Source: Naegleria gruberi (taxonomy: Eukaryota). From it: DNA of 8,124 nucleotides. Within the stretch, counting starts at the first letter, position 1, and every line of letters starts with the position of its first letter. The stretch is from assembly GCA_000004985.1 (NCBI GenBank), contig GG739088.1; one strand, 5' to 3'. Below are positions 1 through 8,100 of the stretch, in pieces. The position numbers and the translations under genes were made by a program. The notes beneath the pieces are model-generated. The model made no database searches, was not told the origin of the DNA, and saw nothing but the letters and a program-made list of their open reading frames with translations.

Positions 1-848
1 CTATTTTCCTGAATAAAACAAAATGGGCAGTCGTTAAGGTTTCACCACTAGTGGCATAGTATTTGGTATTCAAATTATTGATTATTAAATGGAAAAGTTG
101 CTGATCAACCCAATAATGTCTTAAAAAATCGTCAGCACAGGATGGAATTGATGGAAGATGTTTCAACCTGTATATACCATCAACTACTTCTATTGGGATA
201 ATGGTATCACAATCTAGTTGAGAATAAAATGTTGAATTTGAAACTTGATTTCTCCAATACATCAGTCTATCTCTTAGTTGAGAATTCTGTTGATTTACAA
301 GCAATTCGGAGTAATCTTGGCCATTAAAGCTCATTTCCAAAACCAATGCAGCTTGTTGATACATCCACACCTTTCTAACTGGTTGCTGTACTTCATGTAA
401 ATTCACAGACGCCCTTAATGCACACAAATCAGGTGAAACAATGTGAGTAACAGAATATAACTTATTTTCAAAATGCATAGATGACATTCGTAACATTTCT
501 TGCATGCATTTCCATGCTCCTGTATGTTGAAGTGCAACTTTCTCATTTGTTTTGAAAGCAGATAATGTAATACAATTTTCAATTGAAATATTATTACCTG
601 CTAATGAAACCGTCAATACAGTAGGCGTTGATTGAACAGCAATTCTTGAATCCCAAGAATACTTTAGAAATATGCTCGCATTTTCTATCAAGTTCTCTTT
701 AACAAACACTCTAACAGCATCCATCAAAAATGCAACCCCATTAGAAATAGTGTAATATGATTTGGTGGTATCTGAAATTATTTTAAAAGGAGCTGTTTTT
801 GTTAACCAAGTCCTGATACTCCCTGAGAAACCCTTGATGTCGTCTCCA
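1..848 (-). CDS. Internal or 3'-ward coding segment of a large minus-strand gene of unknown function. It is a continuous 282-codon frame (codons occupy 847 down to 2) that is open at both ends, entering the masked block at 849 and running off the window at 1
   Basis: Manual reverse-complement translation shows the frame GDDIKGFSGSIRTWLTKTAPFKIISDTTKSYYTISNGVAFLMDAVRVFVKENLIENASIFLKYSWDSRIAVQSTPTVLTVSLAGNN...HYWVDQQLFHLIINNLNTKYYATSGETLTTAHFVLFRKI with no stop over 846 nt. The track missed it because it has no stop in the window. The track ORF 783..3236 is a different frame, which stops at 783-785, and overlaps only 848-783. I recognise no family motif. Confidence 0.6.
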
Positions 849-2698
849 NNNNNNNNNNNNNNNNNNNNNNNNNNNNNNNNNNNNNNNNNNNNNNNNNNNN
901 NNNNNNNNNNNNNNNNNNNNNNNNNNNNNNNNNNNNNNNNNNNNNNNNNNNNNNNNNNNNNNNNNNNNNNNNNNNNNNNNNNNNNNNNNNNNNNNNNNNN
1001 NNNNNNNNNNNNNNNNNNNNNNNNNNNNNNNNNNNNNNNNNNNNNNNNNNNNNNNNNNNNNNNNNNNNNNNNNNNNNNNNNNNNNNNNNNNNNNNNNNNN
1101 NNNNNNNNNNNNNNNNNNNNNNNNNNNNNNNNNNNNNNNNNNNNNNNNNNNNNNNNNNNNNNNNNNNNNNNNNNNNNNNNNNNNNNNNNNNNNNNNNNNN
1201 NNNNNNNNNNNNNNNNNNNNNNNNNNNNNNNNNNNNNNNNNNNNNNNNNNNNNNNNNNNNNNNNNNNNNNNNNNNNNNNNNNNNNNNNNNNNNNNNNNNN
1301 NNNNNNNNNNNNNNNNNNNNNNNNNNNNNNNNNNNNNNNNNNNNNNNNNNNNNNNNNNNNNNNNNNNNNNNNNNNNNNNNNNNNNNNNNNNNNNNNNNNN
1401 NNNNNNNNNNNNNNNNNNNNNNNNNNNNNNNNNNNNNNNNNNNNNNNNNNNNNNNNNNNNNNNNNNNNNNNNNNNNNNNNNNNNNNNNNNNNNNNNNNNN
1501 NNNNNNNNNNNNNNNNNNNNNNNNNNNNNNNNNNNNNNNNNNNNNNNNNNNNNNNNNNNNNNNNNNNNNNNNNNNNNNNNNNNNNNNNNNNNNNNNNNNN
1601 NNNNNNNNNNNNNNNNNNNNNNNNNNNNNNNNNNNNNNNNNNNNNNNNNNNNNNNNNNNNNNNNNNNNNNNNNNNNNNNNNNNNNNNNNNNNNNNNNNNN
1701 NNNNNNNNNNNNNNNNNNNNNNNNNNNNNNNNNNNNNNNNNNNNNNNNNNNNNNNNNNNNNNNNNNNNNNNNNNNNNNNNNNNNNNNNNNNNNNNNNNNN
1801 NNNNNNNNNNNNNNNNNNNNNNNNNNNNNNNNNNNNNNNNNNNNNNNNNNNNNNNNNNNNNNNNNNNNNNNNNNNNNNNNNNNNNNNNNNNNNNNNNNNN
1901 NNNNNNNNNNNNNNNNNNNNNNNNNNNNNNNNNNNNNNNNNNNNNNNNNNNNNNNNNNNNNNNNNNNNNNNNNNNNNNNNNNNNNNNNNNNNNNNNNNNN
2001 NNNNNNNNNNNNNNNNNNNNNNNNNNNNNNNNNNNNNNNNNNNNNNNNNNNNNNNNNNNNNNNNNNNNNNNNNNNNNNNNNNNNNNNNNNNNNNNNNNNN
2101 NNNNNNNNNNNNNNNNNNNNNNNNNNNNNNNNNNNNNNNNNNNNNNNNNNNNNNNNNNNNNNNNNNNNNNNNNNNNNNNNNNNNNNNNNNNNNNNNNNNN
2201 NNNNNNNNNNNNNNNNNNNNNNNNNNNNNNNNNNNNNNNNNNNNNNNNNNNNNNNNNNNNNNNNNNNNNNNNNNNNNNNNNNNNNNNNNNNNNNNNNNNN
2301 NNNNNNNNNNNNNNNNNNNNNNNNNNNNNNNNNNNNNNNNNNNNNNNNNNNNNNNNNNNNNNNNNNNNNNNNNNNNNNNNNNNNNNNNNNNNNNNNNNNN
2401 NNNNNNNNNNNNNNNNNNNNNNNNNNNNNNNNNNNNNNNNNNNNNNNNNNNNNNNNNNNNNNNNNNNNNNNNNNNNNNNNNNNNNNNNNNNNNNNNNNNN
2501 NNNNNNNNNNNNNNNNNNNNNNNNNNNNNNNNNNNNNNNNNNNNNNNNNNNNNNNNNNNNNNNNNNNNNNNNNNNNNNNNNNNNNNNNNNNNNNNNNNNN
2601 NNNNNNNNNNNNNNNNNNNNNNNNNNNNNNNNNNNNNNNNNNNNNNNNNNNNNNNNNNNNNNNNNNNNNNNNNNNNNNNNNNNNNNNNNNNNNNNNNN

Positions 2699-3142
2699 AC
2701 AAAAACCAATGTTCAGATTTTAAACTTGGCATATTATCTTCATCCCATACGTACACTTTTGTGTCAAGTTTCAAACCTTTAGAGGATTTGCCTTCCATAT
2801 AGTAATACTTAGATGTAAGTTTAACAGATGATGGTTTGGATTGAGTTAACTGAGAGAAGAATAAATCTGAAATTGGACCAAATGGAAGTGTAAAACATAA
2901 ATTCTGTCTCCAAGTTACATTTCTTGCTGAATCAGGATTCATTCTTGTGTGATTATATTTAGGAGAGGCTGGTGACAATTTAATGTTGAATGTGTCTTCA
3001 CCACCATTTGGTGTGATAAAAAATTGAATTCTTTCCATTAAGGCTTTAGATTCATTATCAGAAAGACAGTATGTTGTATCATTATCAGTATTCCACATAT
3101 TGTTATTGGAAACCATTACTCTTCCACATTGATAATTAATTT
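2699..3142 (-). CDS. Exon 4 (partial, continuing into the masked block) of the same large minus-strand gene. Translation runs (K)INYQCGRVMVSNNNMWNTDNDTTYCLSDNESKALMERIQFFITPNGGEDTFNIKLSPASPKYNHTRMNPDSARNVTWRQNLCFTLPFGPISDLFFSQLTQSKPSSVKLTSKYYYMEGKSSKGLKLDTKVYVWDEDNMPSLKSEHWFL...
   Basis: This is the open frame of track ORF 783..3236 on real sequence, with coding-like codon usage (cca, aga, ggt). Its 5' boundary is placed at the AG of a 45-nt intron with a GTAAGT donor at 3187. The intron is a multiple of 3 with no stop, so retention cannot be excluded. Confidence 0.55.
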
Positions 3143-3187
3143 CTAAATTATAAATTATAAATTTAAATTTAAATAAGAAATACTTAC
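3143..3187 (-). other. Putative intron 3 (45 nt, GTAAGT...TTTAG)
   Basis: GTAAGT donor, about 7% GC, and a TTTAG acceptor. It is in-frame and stop-free, so it is also compatible with retention. Confidence 0.35.
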
Positions 3188-3229
3188 TTGGAGGAGAGGG
3201 TTGTGTAAGAAGAGCCAAATATGAGAAGG
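3188..3229 (-). CDS. Exon 3 (42 nt; TFSYLALLTQPSPP plus shared codons) of the large minus-strand gene
   Basis: A 45% GC island between two roughly 10% GC segments. The upstream segment begins GTATGT and ends AG, and the downstream one begins GTAAGT and ends TTTAG. The phase-1 junctions join the upstream ORF frame to the frame of exon 4. Confidence 0.45.
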
Positions 3230-3267
3230 CTTTCAAATATTAAAATATTAAGTATTATGAAACATAC
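3230..3267 (-). other. Putative intron 2 (38 nt, GTATGT...GAAAG)
   Basis: Exact yeast-type GTATGT donor, about 13% GC, and correct phase into exon 3. The alternative reading is that the ATG at 3273-3271 begins a signal-peptide-like exon (see findings). Confidence 0.4.
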
Positions 3268-3441
3268 TTTCATTTTGTGTTGGTTCTTCCAATGGTACAA
3301 AATTAATGGTTGGTAATGAAAAATTGGAGGCTTGATTAGAAGTAAGTGGCCAATGTTGAATAGTTCCTTCGTTTGGCATTGTATTTAAAGTGTCATCCAT
3401 ATCTAGAATTATATTATCTCTCTGGTTGTTAACAATGTTCA
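3268..3441 (-). CDS. Exon 2 of the large minus-strand gene (V)NIVNNQRDNIILDMDDTLNTMPNEGTIQHWPLTSNQASNFSLPTINFVPLEEPTQNE. It equals the body of track ORF 3248..3442, whose GTG start and TAA stop would in this model be spliced out
   Basis: A GTATGT donor lies immediately after codon GAA+A at 3267-3262, and an acceptor AAG lies at 3442-3444 on the minus strand. The frame is preserved into exon 3. Confidence 0.45.
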
Positions 3442-3494
3442 CTTATCCGATTAATTAATTATTTAATTAATTATTATACAAAACTACAACCTAC
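3442..3494 (-). other. Putative intron 1 (53 nt, GTAGGT...AAG), very AT-rich with (TAAT)n-like self-complementary low complexity
   Basis: Canonical GT/AG ends and correct phase. GC is about 20%, against about 37% in the flanking exons. Confidence 0.4.
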
Positions 3495-3579
3495 CACGTT
3501 TTGTTGGTTTCTTCTTCTTGATAGCGGTAATATCAGAAGACTTCTTCCAATTCCATTTAAACATATGTGGAATGCTCAT
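3495..3579 (-). CDS. Exon 1 with the start codon (minus-strand ATG at 3579-3577): MSIPHMFKWNWKKSSDITAIKKKKPTKR + G of a split codon
   Basis: The ATG sits in an A-rich context (aaacatcaacaATGa). Without splicing the frame stops after 31 codons (..KRGRL*). With a GTAGGT donor at 3494 and the AAG acceptor at 3442, a 53-nt intron joins it in frame to the 64-aa ORF. Confidence 0.4.
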
Positions 3580-3725: not shown

Positions 3726-3965
3726 ATGGCGACACATGCTGTGCAAGAAAAAATCCAGAAGAGGAAGAGATCTGATTTGAACATCATTCCACCCAGAAAG
3801 AGAAAAAACCTGAACCTTATCAAAAAGAAAACAATCATCATGCCAAGAAAAGTTGAGGAGCCCAAAAGACCAGAGCTTTCGAAAGATTTCGTGATTGATG
3901 TAAAAAAATCCATCAAAACTACAGTGACCCGAGATGGTGACATTCAAAAACCTTGGATCTCTTAA
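3726..3965 (+). CDS. Small, very basic K/R-rich protein (79 aa): MATHAVQEKIQKRKRSDLNIIPPRKRKNLNLIKKKTIIMPRKVEEPKRPELSKDFVIDVKKSIKTTVTRDGDIQKPWIS*. It has NLS-like KRKR and PRKRK motifs and no recognised family
   Basis: ATG at 3726 and TAA at 3963-3965. It lies on a purine-rich sense strand and has a divergent orientation to the minus gene. Its codon usage is less biased than the S41 gene. The longer track version from 3567 begins in the GT-rich low-complexity tract and is not credible. Confidence 0.3.
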   Translation: MATHAVQEKIQKRKRSDLNIIPPRKRKNLNLIKKKTIIMPRKVEEPKRPELSKDFVIDVKKSIKTTVTRDGDIQKPWIS

Positions 3966-4178: not shown

Positions 4179-4200
4179 AGGCACCTTTTAGGCACCTTTT
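4179..4200. repeat. Perfect tandem duplication of the 11-mer aggcacctttt (x2)
   Basis: Direct reading: 4179-4189 is identical to 4190-4200. Confidence 0.9.
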
Positions 4201-4424: not shown

Positions 4425-6074
4425 NNNNNNNNNNNNNNNNNNNNNNNNNNNNNNNNNNNNNNNNNNNNNNNNNNNNNNNNNNNNNNNNNNNNNNNNNNNN
4501 NNNNNNNNNNNNNNNNNNNNNNNNNNNNNNNNNNNNNNNNNNNNNNNNNNNNNNNNNNNNNNNNNNNNNNNNNNNNNNNNNNNNNNNNNNNNNNNNNNNN
4601 NNNNNNNNNNNNNNNNNNNNNNNNNNNNNNNNNNNNNNNNNNNNNNNNNNNNNNNNNNNNNNNNNNNNNNNNNNNNNNNNNNNNNNNNNNNNNNNNNNNN
4701 NNNNNNNNNNNNNNNNNNNNNNNNNNNNNNNNNNNNNNNNNNNNNNNNNNNNNNNNNNNNNNNNNNNNNNNNNNNNNNNNNNNNNNNNNNNNNNNNNNNN
4801 NNNNNNNNNNNNNNNNNNNNNNNNNNNNNNNNNNNNNNNNNNNNNNNNNNNNNNNNNNNNNNNNNNNNNNNNNNNNNNNNNNNNNNNNNNNNNNNNNNNN
4901 NNNNNNNNNNNNNNNNNNNNNNNNNNNNNNNNNNNNNNNNNNNNNNNNNNNNNNNNNNNNNNNNNNNNNNNNNNNNNNNNNNNNNNNNNNNNNNNNNNNN
5001 NNNNNNNNNNNNNNNNNNNNNNNNNNNNNNNNNNNNNNNNNNNNNNNNNNNNNNNNNNNNNNNNNNNNNNNNNNNNNNNNNNNNNNNNNNNNNNNNNNNN
5101 NNNNNNNNNNNNNNNNNNNNNNNNNNNNNNNNNNNNNNNNNNNNNNNNNNNNNNNNNNNNNNNNNNNNNNNNNNNNNNNNNNNNNNNNNNNNNNNNNNNN
5201 NNNNNNNNNNNNNNNNNNNNNNNNNNNNNNNNNNNNNNNNNNNNNNNNNNNNNNNNNNNNNNNNNNNNNNNNNNNNNNNNNNNNNNNNNNNNNNNNNNNN
5301 NNNNNNNNNNNNNNNNNNNNNNNNNNNNNNNNNNNNNNNNNNNNNNNNNNNNNNNNNNNNNNNNNNNNNNNNNNNNNNNNNNNNNNNNNNNNNNNNNNNN
5401 NNNNNNNNNNNNNNNNNNNNNNNNNNNNNNNNNNNNNNNNNNNNNNNNNNNNNNNNNNNNNNNNNNNNNNNNNNNNNNNNNNNNNNNNNNNNNNNNNNNN
5501 NNNNNNNNNNNNNNNNNNNNNNNNNNNNNNNNNNNNNNNNNNNNNNNNNNNNNNNNNNNNNNNNNNNNNNNNNNNNNNNNNNNNNNNNNNNNNNNNNNNN
5601 NNNNNNNNNNNNNNNNNNNNNNNNNNNNNNNNNNNNNNNNNNNNNNNNNNNNNNNNNNNNNNNNNNNNNNNNNNNNNNNNNNNNNNNNNNNNNNNNNNNN
5701 NNNNNNNNNNNNNNNNNNNNNNNNNNNNNNNNNNNNNNNNNNNNNNNNNNNNNNNNNNNNNNNNNNNNNNNNNNNNNNNNNNNNNNNNNNNNNNNNNNNN
5801 NNNNNNNNNNNNNNNNNNNNNNNNNNNNNNNNNNNNNNNNNNNNNNNNNNNNNNNNNNNNNNNNNNNNNNNNNNNNNNNNNNNNNNNNNNNNNNNNNNNN
5901 NNNNNNNNNNNNNNNNNNNNNNNNNNNNNNNNNNNNNNNNNNNNNNNNNNNNNNNNNNNNNNNNNNNNNNNNNNNNNNNNNNNNNNNNNNNNNNNNNNNN
6001 NNNNNNNNNNNNNNNNNNNNNNNNNNNNNNNNNNNNNNNNNNNNNNNNNNNNNNNNNNNNNNNNNNNNNNNNNT

Positions 6075-6729
6075 GCCTCTCTCAATAATGCTTCTGGAAT
6101 TATTGATTATTATACTGGTNTGGGATATGATTTGAAAAAGTTTGTTGGAGGTGAAATTACCAAAATTCATGGAAAGGTTGCTATTAGACATATTGTCGAT
6201 TGGGCTAATGCTAATGCTGGTGGTTACAAGGATGAAGGAGCTCGTTTCAATGTTGCCATCTCTAACTTGTTCATGACTAGATCTTTGAATAGACTTGGAT
6301 TCCCAGTTAATGGTGAAATTGTTTCCTATGAAATTTTGGCTACTGATGGAACTACTAGTACTGTTAATATTCCTTGGGTTGGTTCTTCATTGATTAATTA
6401 TCAATCACCAAACGATTTCTATGCCTCATGTCTTGCTACTGCTAATAGAGCTAGATTGACCAATGAGGAAAAGAAGGTCGATCCTCTCCAAGAAAAGAGA
6501 ACTCTTCCACTTTTGTCTAAAGCAACCAAGGATACTCACAATATTGTCAATCTCATCACTGGTGATCAAGTTAATTATTTCCAAATTGATGGAAAGGTTG
6601 GTGTTATTACTGTTGAATCTTTTGTTCCAAAAGATGAAGTTCAATTTGCTAAAGATTTCCAAACAGCCATGTATCTTGCCAAGCTCAATAAGATTCCACG
6701 TATTATTGTCGATGTTACCAACAATGGTG
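6075..6729 (+). CDS. Exon (partial, emerging from the masked block) of an S41-family (C-terminal processing peptidase, tricorn-core or IRBP-like) domain protein: ALLNNASGIIDYYTGxGYDLKKFVGGEITKIHGKVAIRHIV...DGKVGVITVESFVPKDEVQFAKDFQTAMYLAKLNKIPRIIVDVTNNG(G)
   Basis: Frame 0 is open from the first unmasked base, and the track's start at 6132 is only a TTG. Codon bias is strong. The exon ends in phase 1 at a GTATGT donor (6730). Motifs DGKVGVITVESF and IIVDVTNNGGG resemble the GYIRIxSF and LDLRNNGGG motifs of S41 proteins. Confidence 0.75.
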
Positions 6730-6808
6730 GTATGTATTCTATTTTAACATTATTATTCAAATAATTTCCAAATACTAATACTATTCTGATTAATTTAATA
6801 ACAAATAG
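6730..6808 (+). other. Intron (79 nt): GTATGT donor, TACTAAT branch-like motif at 6773-6779 lying 29 nt from the TAG acceptor at 6806-6808
   Basis: The two large ORFs 6132..6764 and 6823..8100 are in different frames and join exactly through GT...AG in phase 1 (G|GT gives Gly), completing the NNGGG motif. The intron is about 20% GC. Confidence 0.8.
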
Positions 6809-8100
6809 GTGGTGAAGAATGTTTGGGTTATGCCCTCATTAAATATTTGCACTCTAATGCCTTCTCTAGCAATTTTGAAACTCTCTTTGCTAGAACTGAC
6901 ATGATTGCCACAGAATTGGGAAGACAATTAGCAACTGCTGGAACCAAATTGTCACCAGATGCTGATTCTATTTGGAATTTTGCTACTTGGAAGACCATTG
7001 ATGGAAAGAATTTCAAAGATGAAACTTGGTATACCAATCAAAAGAGTTACATTAGAGGTACTGATGGAAAACCAGCATTCTATTCATCCATTCTTAAGGA
7101 AAATTATTGTCAACCATCATTTGATAATTACTATTTCACTGGTGAAGATTTGTTAAAGTACTCACCAGATGATTTCATTCTCCTCTCAAATGGTAGATGT
7201 GCCTCCACTTGTGCATTGTTCACTCGTCACCTCCAAGAATCTCAAAAGGTAAAGACTGTTGTCGTTGGTGGTTTGAGTGGTCAACCACAACAAATTGCAC
7301 AAGTTCCAGGTGGTCAAGTTTATGAATTTGAAGATTTACTTGCTGATATTAAGAGTTTGAACATTAATTCAGATGTTACTCCAAAGCCACTTCCAGTTCA
7401 ATCAAGATTCAGATTTGCCATTCGTGAAGCTTATGCTTGGAATCAAAATGAATTAACTCCTTTGGAATTCTTCTTTGAAGGTTCTGATTTCAGATTGAGT
7501 TATACTAAGGAAAGTGCTGTTGATAGATCAAAGGTTTGGATTGATACTATGAAATTCTTTGATATTTGTGCTAAATGGCAAACCAAGGCATGTAACTTGA
7601 CCAATGGACAAGGTGTTCAAAATTGTAATACCAACACTGGTAAATATGTTCCAACCTGTATCTTGACCAGCTGTAATCCTGGATTTGGTTTCTCTGCTGA
7701 AAAGAAGAACTGCATTCCATGTGCCATTGGTGAATATAACCCAGGTCAACTTTCCTGTACTGCTTGTACTAATAAGCCAGCTGAAAATGCAGTCTACACC
7801 AACTCATCCACTACCAACAATTGTCCATTCGCTTGTGATGATGGTTATGATTACAATGCCTCAAAGAATACTTGTGTCATTTCAGAAGATATGAAAGTTG
7901 GTAAGGCCTTCTTTGGTATCATTATTTCCCTATGTGCTCTCTTCTTAATCTTTGCAGTTGCCTTACTCATTGTGACCGTTGTCATGTTTGTAAGGAATAC
8001 AAACGTGTCTCTGGTGAAAGAGCTACTCTCTTATAACTCAAATAAAACATCAATTAAATCCATTCTCAAGATTCTCAAGTTTGTTCCATTAAACATGTAA
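6809..8100 (+). CDS. Second exon of the S41-like gene. It covers the S41 catalytic-region homologue (..FILLSNGRCASTCALFTRHLQESQKVKTVVVGGLSGQ..), a 12-Cys module (7567-7875, CAKWQTKAC...CIPCAIGEYNPGQLSCTAC...CPFACDDGYDYNASKNTC), a 27-residue hydrophobic TM segment (about 7909-7989, FFGIIISLCALFLIFAVALLIVTVVMF) and a short basic tail, ending TAA 8098-8100
   Basis: Single long open frame with strong yeast-like codon bias. The colinear S41 motifs, the CxxCxxGxY spacing typical of ephrin-receptor, GCC2_GCC3 or TNFR-like Cys repeats, the several N-x-S/T sequons and the hydrophobic run were read directly. The last 110 nt or so show a codon-usage shift (gtg, ctg, cta, gag) and a GTAAGG at 7988, so the true C-terminus could differ. 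Confidence 0.7.

What the first reader, a model, noticed from the sequence alone, without database searches (positions are those of the whole stretch)
3143..3579. 5' end of the large minus-strand gene is best explained by three clustered micro-introns; the track's 64-aa ORF is an internal exon
Three islands of 7-20% GC (3442-3494, 3230-3267, 3143-3187) each begin with a near-consensus donor (GTAGGT, GTATGT, GTAAGT) and end in AG. Removing them joins ATG 3579 to the ORF at 3441-3268, then to a 42-nt exon, then to the long frame that runs into the masked block, with the reading frame conserved at every junction. Two exact GTATGT or GTAAGT hexamers within 80 nt, each in usable phase, are unlikely by chance. 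None of the three has a CTRAY or TACTAAC branch motif, unlike the S41 intron, which lowers confidence. Competing models exist. One is an independent small two-exon gene (3579-3248, 92 aa) followed by a separate gene. That separate gene would start either at ATG 3273 (MKVCFIILNILIFESLLIFGSSYTTLSS, signal-peptide-like but within very T-rich sequence and overlapping the small gene) or at ATG 3116 (MVSNNNMWNTD...).
Basis: seen in the sequence. Interest (0 to 1): 0.55.

Follow-up and report, generated by a model that had tools for sequence, protein, structure and literature searches.

The report
Three short introns, already annotated
The public GenBank annotation of this same contig already has exactly that model, so the finding is correct but ordinary.

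Summary
The window is a complete 8,124-nt Naegleria gruberi scaffold.

**Observation: confirmed.** Three AT-rich islands of 53, 38 and 45 nt (GC 0.19, 0.16, 0.09) start with GTAGGT, GTATGT and GTAAGT and end in AG. Removing them joins ATG 3579, the 64-aa ORF and a 42-nt exon to the long frame.

**Interpretation: supported, but not new.** GenBank's own model on this contig (EFC35653.1) uses exactly these introns. So do the models on two sister contigs.

**Independent support:**
- A related metagenome contig has three short GT-AG introns in the same places and phases, including a 42-nt micro-exon.
- Two more distant homologues encode the N-terminal motif, or the exon 2-3-4 junction peptide, in uninterrupted coding sequence.
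- Both exonic differences in a second assembly are synonymous in the proposed frame.

**Corrections:**
- The gene is not large. It encodes about 297 aa (312 in intact copies) and ends inside the N block.
- The deposited 397-aa model is a chimera that bridges an assembly gap into a separate ~750-aa gene.
- This copy lacks 15 conserved residues of a confidently predicted helix.
- The two-gene unit is multi-copy.

No transcript data could be consulted. Interest is low.

The parts
3495..3579 (-). Exon 1 (85 nt, ends in phase 1). ATG 3579 is the first possible start after an in-frame stop. Encodes MSIPHMFKWNWKKSSDITAIKKKKPTKR.
   Evidence: The motif M-x-IP-x-x-F-x-W-x-x-K is conserved at the start of the L001, L002 and L003 homologues.
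3442..3494 (-). Intron 1: 53 nt, GC 0.19, GTAGGT...AAG. No strict CTRAY; TTAAT lies 12 nt from the 3' end.
   Evidence: Same phase and same relative place as L001 intron 428-468. The 3' boundary is supported only by composition, the first-AG rule and the GenBank model.
3268..3441 (-). Exon 2 (174 nt). This is the 64-aa ORF of the track, read in frame.
   Evidence: Its 3' part, NFSLPTINFVPLEEPTQNE, is conserved in L001. The one difference in L005 (position 3338) is synonymous.
3230..3267 (-). Intron 2: 38 nt, GC 0.16, GTATGT...AAG. Shifts the frame by 2.
   Evidence: The homologous L001 intron 607-649 (43 nt, GTAAGT..CAG) has the same phase. It is absent in L002, where the junction peptide is continuous.
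3188..3229 (-). Exon 3: 42-nt micro-exon, GC 0.45. Encodes (T)FSYLALLTQPSPP.
   Evidence: L001 has a 42-nt exon at 650-691 encoding (P)SFSFLSLLTGPSI. L002 has LLLSQPNPP inside a long exon.
3143..3187 (-). Intron 3: 45 nt, GC 0.09, GTAAGT...TAG. In frame and free of stop codons, so the reading frame alone does not require its removal.
   Evidence: The homologous L001 intron 692-745 (54 nt, GTAGGT..CAG) is. The spliced product QPSPP|KINY matches QPNPPNIS of L002. KINYQCGRVMV matches VHNQTQNVMI of L001.
2699..3142 (-). Visible part of exon 4, which runs into the N block. In intact copies 49 more residues follow (...QAWQDM, then stop). The true stop should therefore lie about 150 nt into the gap (inferred).
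2942..2943 (-). Junction of a 45-nt in-frame deletion (HTR|MNP). Every other homologue has 15 residues here (VKEAKTLIERSVVAR in N. gruberi copies).
   Evidence: The segment lies in helix 161-182 of the AlphaFold2 model, where block-mean pLDDT is 92-96.

Best explanation
Positions 3143-3579 (minus strand) are the 5' part of a Naegleria gruberi protein-coding gene. The gene belongs to an uncharacterised family found in Heterolobosea and in unnamed metagenome proteins (the NAEGRDRAFT_76788 group).

The primary transcript carries three ordinary GT-AG (U2-type) spliceosomal introns of 53, 38 and 45 nt. They separate exons of 85, 174, 42 and at least 444 nt. Because the introns are so short, AT-rich and strong at the donor, each is presumably recognised across the intron (intron definition), with the first AG after a weak TTAAT-like branch region used as acceptor. 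That step is inferred.

Splicing joins ATG 3579 to the frame that encodes the conserved C-terminal domain. Exons 1-3 and the first ~20 codons of exon 4 encode a poorly conserved N-terminal extension of about 125 residues. It is predicted to be disordered and carries three short conserved motifs.

The gene product is about 297 aa in this copy and 312 aa in intact copies. It ends inside the N block. A separate gene of about 750 aa follows on the same strand.
For: 1. The GenBank model on this very contig has exactly these introns. So do models EFC35555.1 and EFC35698.1 on sister contigs.
2. L001, a relative with 53-58% protein identity, has GTAAGT/GTAAGT/GTAGGT introns of 41, 43 and 54 nt. They sit at the same places and in the same phases, and they flank a 42-nt exon. 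The spliced N-termini align at E 1e-8 across all junctions.
3. P0014/L003 encodes SIPYTFKFEWK...KKIKKTRK at the start of one contiguous ORF that continues into the conserved domain.
4. P0013/L002 encodes VPMSVPPVQENSMIDLLLSQPNPPNIS in a single exon. This matches the exon 2/3/4 junction product.
5. The three donors are the only GTA[ATG]GT on the minus strand. Each opens a GC <= 0.19 island, a composition almost never seen in coding or intergenic sequence here and shared with the window's S41 intron (79 nt, GC 0.165).
6. In L005, an independent assembly about 99.4% identical, both exonic substitutions (3338 and 3108) are third-position synonymous changes in the proposed frame.
7. Short introns and 5' clustering fit what is reported: N. 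fowleri mapping used a 30-bp minimum intron (PMC8296547), the N. lovaniensis median intron is 80 bp (PMC6125883), and introns of intron-poor unicellular eukaryotes are over-represented at 5' ends (PMC3488318).
8. AlphaFold2 gives pLDDT < 50 for most of residues 1-127 and > 90 for most of 160-312.
Against: - No transcript, EST or RNA-seq evidence could be consulted. The GenBank models are automated predictions, and I could not see what evidence supported them.
- L001 has an in-frame TAG (412-414) in its exon 1 under the homologous model. Exon 1 is therefore not cleanly open in the closest relative.
- The intron 1 acceptor has frame-compatible alternatives at 3403 and 3418.
- Other GenBank models of the same family start at ATG 3098 (P0002, P0007). 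One Willaertia magna model starts near the equivalent of ATG 3116.
- None of the three introns has a strict CTRAY branch motif, and 38 nt is very short.
- This copy lacks 15 conserved residues and may not be functional.
Confidence: 0.9

Rival explanations
1. There are two separate genes. One is a small two-exon gene (3579-3248, 92 aa). The other is an independent downstream gene starting at ATG 3273, 3116 or 3098.
For: GenBank models P0002 (348-kb scaffold) and P0007 (222-kb scaffold) start at MWNTDND, which is ATG 3098. W. magna model P0015 starts at the equivalent of the 3116 region. The Met of ATG 3116 is conserved in L001.
Against: The N-terminal extension and the C-terminal domain are collinear in one ORF in L003 and in one long exon in L002. 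The read-through tail SMFHNT* is not conserved, and L001 reads RK** there. ATG 3273 has no counterpart in L001. The micro-exon peptide is conserved, with flanking introns in the same phases.
Confidence: 0.04
2. The three introns are real sequence features, but splicing is variable. Possible variants are skipping of the 42-nt exon (one 125-nt intron, 3267-3143, frame-neutral), retention of the in-frame stop-free intron 3, or use of another intron 1 acceptor (3403 or 3418).
For: All these variants keep the frame open. Intron 3 is 45 nt and stop-free. Intron retention and exon skipping were both detected in N. gruberi RNA-seq in general (PMC6142364).
Against: The micro-exon has exon-like GC (0.45) and its peptide is conserved in L001 and L002. 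The homologous intron 3 of L001 has in-frame stops, so coding read-through is not conserved. The stretch 3441-3403 has exon-like GC of about 0.31. This was counted by hand from the sequence.
Confidence: 0.1
3. This particular copy is a decaying or non-functional duplicate of a multi-copy gene. It keeps intact splice signals but lacks part of the folded domain. This is not exclusive of the main explanation.
For: A 45-nt deletion removes 15 residues that are present in every homologue, down to about 20% identity. These residues form most of a helix whose block-mean pLDDT is 92-96. The gene occurs on at least five scaffolds, and gene B sequence on a sixth.
Against: The deletion is in frame. The rest of the visible ORF is open and 100% identical to P0002 on a 348-kb scaffold. 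The two exonic differences from L005 are synonymous.
Confidence: 0.3

Closest known systems
GenBank/RefSeq gene models of N. gruberi NEG-M: EFC35653.1/XP_002668397.1 (this contig), EFC35555.1/XP_002668299.1 (NAEGRDRAFT_76788) and EFC35698.1/XP_002668442.1 (NAEGRDRAFT_76646)
   Same: They have the identical start codon, the identical three introns and the identical 42-nt exon.
   Different: The model on this contig continues through a 1,954-nt 'intron' (2725-772, GTTTAA..TTTCAG) that merely bridges the N block. It thereby fuses the gene to the next gene. The sister-contig models end properly at ...QAWQDM (312 and 311 aa) and contain the 15 residues missing here.
Short, 5'-clustered GT-AG spliceosomal introns of intron-poor unicellular eukaryotes
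   Same: The donors are strong (GTA[AGT]GT) and the intron bodies are AT-rich. The introns cluster at the 5' end of an otherwise nearly intron-free gene (PMC3488318). L002's homologue probably has four clustered 55-69-nt GTAAGT introns with 30-39-nt exons (best of 31 frame-keeping solutions).
   Different: At 38-53 nt they are well below the N. gruberi mean of 203 bp (PMC8296547) and the N. lovaniensis median of 80 bp (PMC6125883). They are still above the 30-bp floor used for N. fowleri. They have no TACTAAC-like branch motif, unlike the window's own 79-nt S41 intron.
Willaertia magna hypothetical proteins KAL9654772.1, KAL9657962.1 and KAL9654553.1, plus unnamed metagenome proteins (the family of the encoded protein)
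   Same: They share the C-terminal domain of about 185 residues (...VTWRQNLCFTLP...W[YF]LKKW...RVEF.Y...WQ.C). HMM E-values range from 2e-39 for the best Willaertia protein to 1e-4 or weaker for the most distant members.
   Different: The N-terminal extensions differ in length and, where DNA was available (L001-L003), in intron content. No family member has a Pfam domain, a named function or a solved structural relative.

Membership tests
U2-type (GT-AG) spliceosomal intron | GT at the 5' end and AG at the 3' end | tested here: met
   All three introns meet this.
U2-type (GT-AG) spliceosomal intron | Extended donor complementary to U1 (GTRNGT) | tested here: met
   The donors are GTAGGT, GTATGT and GTAAGT. 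They are the only such hexamers on the minus strand.
U2-type (GT-AG) spliceosomal intron | Branch-point motif (CTRAY / TACTAAC-like) upstream of the acceptor | tested here: inconclusive
   There is no strict CTRAY. Only TTAAT or YTNAY-type matches occur, and these are trivial in sequence with 80-90% A+T (read). The homologous L001 introns have TTCTAAT and GTCTAAC.
U2-type (GT-AG) spliceosomal intron | Removal restores one open reading frame whose product is conserved | tested here: met
U2-type (GT-AG) spliceosomal intron | Intron position and phase shared with an orthologue | tested here: met
   L001 has all three in the same phases and a 42-nt middle exon. The caveat is an in-frame TAG in L001 exon 1.
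U2-type (GT-AG) spliceosomal intron | Spliced junctions seen in RNA | not testable with these tools
   No transcript data were available. Exact-sequence look-ups for P0001, P0002 and P0005 found no contig on record.
U12-type intron | RTATCCTT donor and TCCTTAAC branch site | tested here: not met
   The donors are GTAGGT, GTATGT and GTAAGT, and there is no TCCTTAAC.
DNA transposon (considered for the multi-copy gene A + gene B unit) | Recognisable transposase domain | tested here: not met
   There is no Pfam hit for P0007, P0001 or L001 gene B and no PDB sequence hit. The AlphaFold2 model of gene B is unusable, with pLDDT 33.
DNA transposon (considered for the multi-copy gene A + gene B unit) | Terminal inverted repeats and target-site duplication | tested here: inconclusive
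   The 10-mer CACAGCATGT lies about 160 nt upstream of gene A in the window and in L001. It lies inverted about 157 nt downstream of gene B in L004. The local inverted alignment is not significant, with 22% of shuffles scoring as high. The far end in N. gruberi is off the contig, and no TSD was seen.
DNA transposon (considered for the multi-copy gene A + gene B unit) | Multiple near-identical copies at different loci | tested here: met
   Models at >= 90% identity lie on scaffolds of 6,144, 8,124, 8,535, 222,118, 348,446 and 499,907 nt. Haplotigs cannot be told apart from true repeats without the DNA.

The most novel reading that the evidence does not exclude
The gene with the three introns (gene A) and the ~750-aa orphan gene that follows it (gene B) might together form an unclassified, lineage-restricted mobile or amplifying element of Naegleria. 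The points in favour are as follows.
- The pair is multi-copy in N. gruberi.
- It breaks the assembly into small scaffolds that end inside it.
- It keeps the same order and a 119-nt spacer in a related species.
- In that species it is bracketed by an inverted 10-mer (CACAGCATGT). The same 10-mer sits at the same distance upstream of gene A in N. gruberi.
Probability: 0.15. Interest if true: 0.45.

Novelty: already known. Interest (0 to 1): 0.1.

Why it matters
The finding matters little for biology. It reproduces a gene model that has been in GenBank since the N. gruberi genome release, and the introns are conventional.

It has three practical uses:
- It flags the deposited model on this contig as a chimera that bridges an assembly gap between two genes.
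- It gives comparative support for a conserved 42-nt micro-exon and a conserved start motif in an uncharacterised heterolobosean protein family.

Tried and rejected
- **Pfam:** no hit for the spliced N-terminal product, for gene B or for P0007/P0001.
- **PDB sequence search with P0007:** nothing.
- **AlphaFold2 of gene B as a single sequence:** pLDDT 33, unusable.
- **Collection scans:** two scans of metagenome contigs and one of viral contigs found no further loci. One viral scan call failed because the alignment had no conserved stretch.
- **Protein search with the window part of gene B:** nothing. The full gene B query found one homologue, P0040.
- **Nucleotide-level exon versus intron conservation, window against L001:** too noisy on such short segments to discriminate.
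- **The 45-nt missing segment as a spliced-out 'exitron':** rejected. The boundaries would be GT..GA, or 44 nt and out of frame (reasoned from L001 DNA).
- **Rescuing the L001 exon 1 stop with another GT or GC donor:** no canonical combination keeps the frame.
- **Fritz-Laylin 2010 genome paper:** not held in the library.

Full report
**Source of the window.** The cluster look-up lists EFC35653.1/XP_002668397.1 ('predicted protein, partial', 397 aa) on a contig of exactly 8,124 nt. The window is therefore a whole small scaffold of the N. gruberi NEG-M assembly. That genome is 41 Mb with 33% GC, 1.7 exons per gene and a mean intron of 203 bp (PMC8296547).

**Checking the observation.** On the minus strand:

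| Feature | Coordinates | Length | GC | Ends |
|---|---|---|---|---|
| Exon 1 | 3579-3495 | 85 nt | 0.35 | |
| Intron 1 | 3494-3442 | 53 nt | 0.189 | GTAGGT..AAG |
| Exon 2 | 3441-3268 | 174 nt | 0.32 | |
| Intron 2 | 3267-3230 | 38 nt | 0.158 | GTATGT..AAG |
| Exon 3 | 3229-3188 | 42 nt | 0.45 | |
| Intron 3 | 3187-3143 | 45 nt | 0.089 | GTAAGT..TAG |
| Exon 4 | 3142 down to the N block at 2698 | at least 444 nt | 0.315 | |

- The spliced frame is open throughout.
- The 64-aa ORF 3248-3442 is exon 2.
- ATG 3579 is the first possible start after an in-frame stop.

**Is it more than chance?**
- Frame conservation alone is weak evidence. I enumerated 5,406 GT..AG solutions with up to three introns that keep the frame open.
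- GTADGT hexamers are not enriched in the window: 8 found against 5 expected.
- What is specific is the coincidence of signals. The three hexamers are the only GTA[ATG]GT on the minus strand.
- Of the eight in the window, only these three and the donor of the S41 intron (6730-6808, 79 nt, GC 0.165) are followed by 40 nt with GC <= 0.20.
- 45-nt windows with GC <= 0.19 are 0.1% of coding positions and 0% of the intergenic stretch.

**The model is already annotated.**
- EFC35653.1 is reproduced 397/397 by exons 3579-3495, 3441-3268, 3229-3188 and 3142-2726, plus a fifth exon 771 to about 299.
- The same N-terminus is in EFC35555.1 (NAEGRDRAFT_76788, 312 aa, 6,144-nt contig) and EFC35698.1 (NAEGRDRAFT_76646, 311 aa, 8,535-nt contig).
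- These are automated models. I could not see what evidence they were built on.

**Independent comparative evidence.**
1. *L001* is an ENA metagenome contig whose protein is 53-58% identical.
   - Upstream of the conserved domain it has GTAAGT, GTAAGT and GTAGGT introns of 41, 43 and 54 nt (GC 0.22-0.28).
   - They have the same phases as the window's introns, and the middle exon is again 42 nt.
   - The two spliced N-termini align collinearly over residues 3-98, across all three junctions, at E 1e-8.
2. *P0014 on L003* (a JGI metagenome) is one contiguous ORF. It starts MVNVHSIPYTFKFEWKPSKKIKKTRK and runs into the conserved domain. The start motif matches SIPHMFKWNWK (E 0.002).
3. *P0013 on L002* (a Logan assembly) has VPMSVPPVQENSMIDLLLSQPNPPNIS inside one long exon. 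This matches the exon 2/3/4 junction product VPLEEPTQNETFSYLALLTQPSPPKIN (E 0.007).
   - L002 probably has its own cluster of four GTAAGT introns (55-69 nt) with 30-39-nt exons further upstream. Its start reads MTKQQIPNTFHWK. This was the top of 31 frame-keeping solutions, so it is an inferred model.
4. *L005* comes from another NCBI assembly and is about 99.4% identical. It differs at three positions: one in intron 1, and two third-codon synonymous changes in exons 2 and 4.

The orthologue test it asked for is positive.

**Remaining weaknesses.**
- There is no RNA evidence.
- L001 has an in-frame TAG (412-414) in its exon 1, and no canonical alternative donor rescues it. This could be a sequencing error, a defective copy or a different start.
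- The intron 1 acceptor is not pinned by conservation, because the first 14 residues of exon 2 have no counterpart in L001. Alternatives at 3403 and 3418 are frame-compatible. However, the stretch 3441-3403 has exon-like GC of about 0.31, which I counted by hand from the sequence.
- Some automated models of the family start at internal ATGs (P0002, P0007, P0015).

**Corrections to the interpretation.**
- The gene is not large. Intact copies end ...QAWQDM at 312 aa, so the stop should lie about 150 nt inside the N block.
- The deposited model crosses the block with a 1,954-nt 'intron' (GTTTAA..TTTCAG). This indicates that the N runs are real scaffold gaps and that the model fuses two genes.
- The downstream frame (1-848, minus strand) belongs to gene B. 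Gene B is 51-53% identical to a separate ORF that follows gene A in L001 after a 119-nt spacer. It is also 51-53% identical to a complete 754-aa ORF on L004, whose 5' end repeats the 3' region of L001 with small differences.

**The protein.**
- AlphaFold2 with a 20-sequence alignment gives pLDDT < 50 for most of residues 1-127. This region is the product of exons 1-3 plus the start of exon 4.
- It gives pLDDT > 90 for most of 160-312, an alpha+beta domain.
- No Pfam family, PDB sequence relative or fold relative was found.
- Named relatives are hypothetical proteins of Willaertia magna. The rest are unnamed metagenome proteins.

**Mechanism.** These are conventional U2-type introns at the short end of the Naegleria range. 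Their clustering at the 5' end of an otherwise nearly intron-free gene is the usual pattern in intron-poor unicellular eukaryotes (PMC3488318). Recognition by intron definition, and use of the first AG downstream of a weak branch region, are inferred and not shown.

**Verdict.** The result is already known, and interest is low.

Noticed in passing
window 849-2698 and 4426-6073 (N blocks); single N at 6120: The N runs look like real scaffold gaps, not masking. The deposited model EFC35653.1 jumps the first block with a 1,954-nt pseudo-intron (2725-772). It thereby fuses two genes.
   Followed up: yes
window 2942|2943 (minus strand): There is a 45-nt in-frame deletion relative to three other N. 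gruberi copies and every homologue. The same deletion is present in P0002 on a 348-kb scaffold. It removes 15 residues of a helix whose block-mean pLDDT is 92-96.
   Followed up: partly
window 1-3579 (minus strand) and beyond the contig end: Gene A plus a ~750-aa orphan gene B form a unit represented on N. gruberi scaffolds of 6.1, 8.1, 8.5, 222, 348 and 500 kb. The window ends inside gene B. The same gene order with a 119-nt spacer occurs in L001/L004. Gene B has no Pfam, PDB or usable AlphaFold2 result.
   Followed up: partly
window 3734-3743 (-); L001 126-135 (+); L004 2633-2642 (-): The 10-mer CACAGCATGT (0.01 expected per window) lies 164 nt upstream of the gene A ATG in the window and 160 nt upstream in L001. 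It lies inverted 157 nt downstream of the gene B stop in L004. It could be a promoter element or a terminal inverted repeat. The inverted local alignment is not significant on its own.
   Followed up: partly
L001 412-414: There is an in-frame TAG inside the homologue of exon 1 in the closest relative. No canonical alternative splice rescues the frame. The cause is unexplained: a sequencing error, a defective copy or a different start.
   Followed up: partly
L002 66-540: The homologue in another lineage appears to have four clustered 55-69-nt GTAAGT introns with 39-, 30- and 36-nt exons at its 5' end. It has no introns where the window has introns 2 and 3, so intron positions are not conserved across the family. 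The model is inferred (best of 31 frame-keeping solutions).
   Followed up: partly
window 6074-8098 (+): This is an S41-like peptidase gene (Pfam PF03572, 23.2 bits against a cut-off of 24). It has one 79-nt intron (6730-6808, GTATGT...TACTAAT...TAG, GC 0.165). Its C-terminus has Cys-rich repeats and a hydrophobic, probably membrane-spanning segment. I used it only as an internal intron control.
   Followed up: partly
window 3726-3965 (+): A 79-aa lysine/arginine-rich ORF (MATHAVQEKIQKRKRS...) starts inside the conserved CACAGCATGT block, on the strand opposite to gene A. It has no significant Pfam hit, and its peptide is not conserved in L001.
   Followed up: partly
window 4180-4200 (+): GGCACCTTTT occurs twice in tandem, separated by one A, in the intergenic region.
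   Followed up: no
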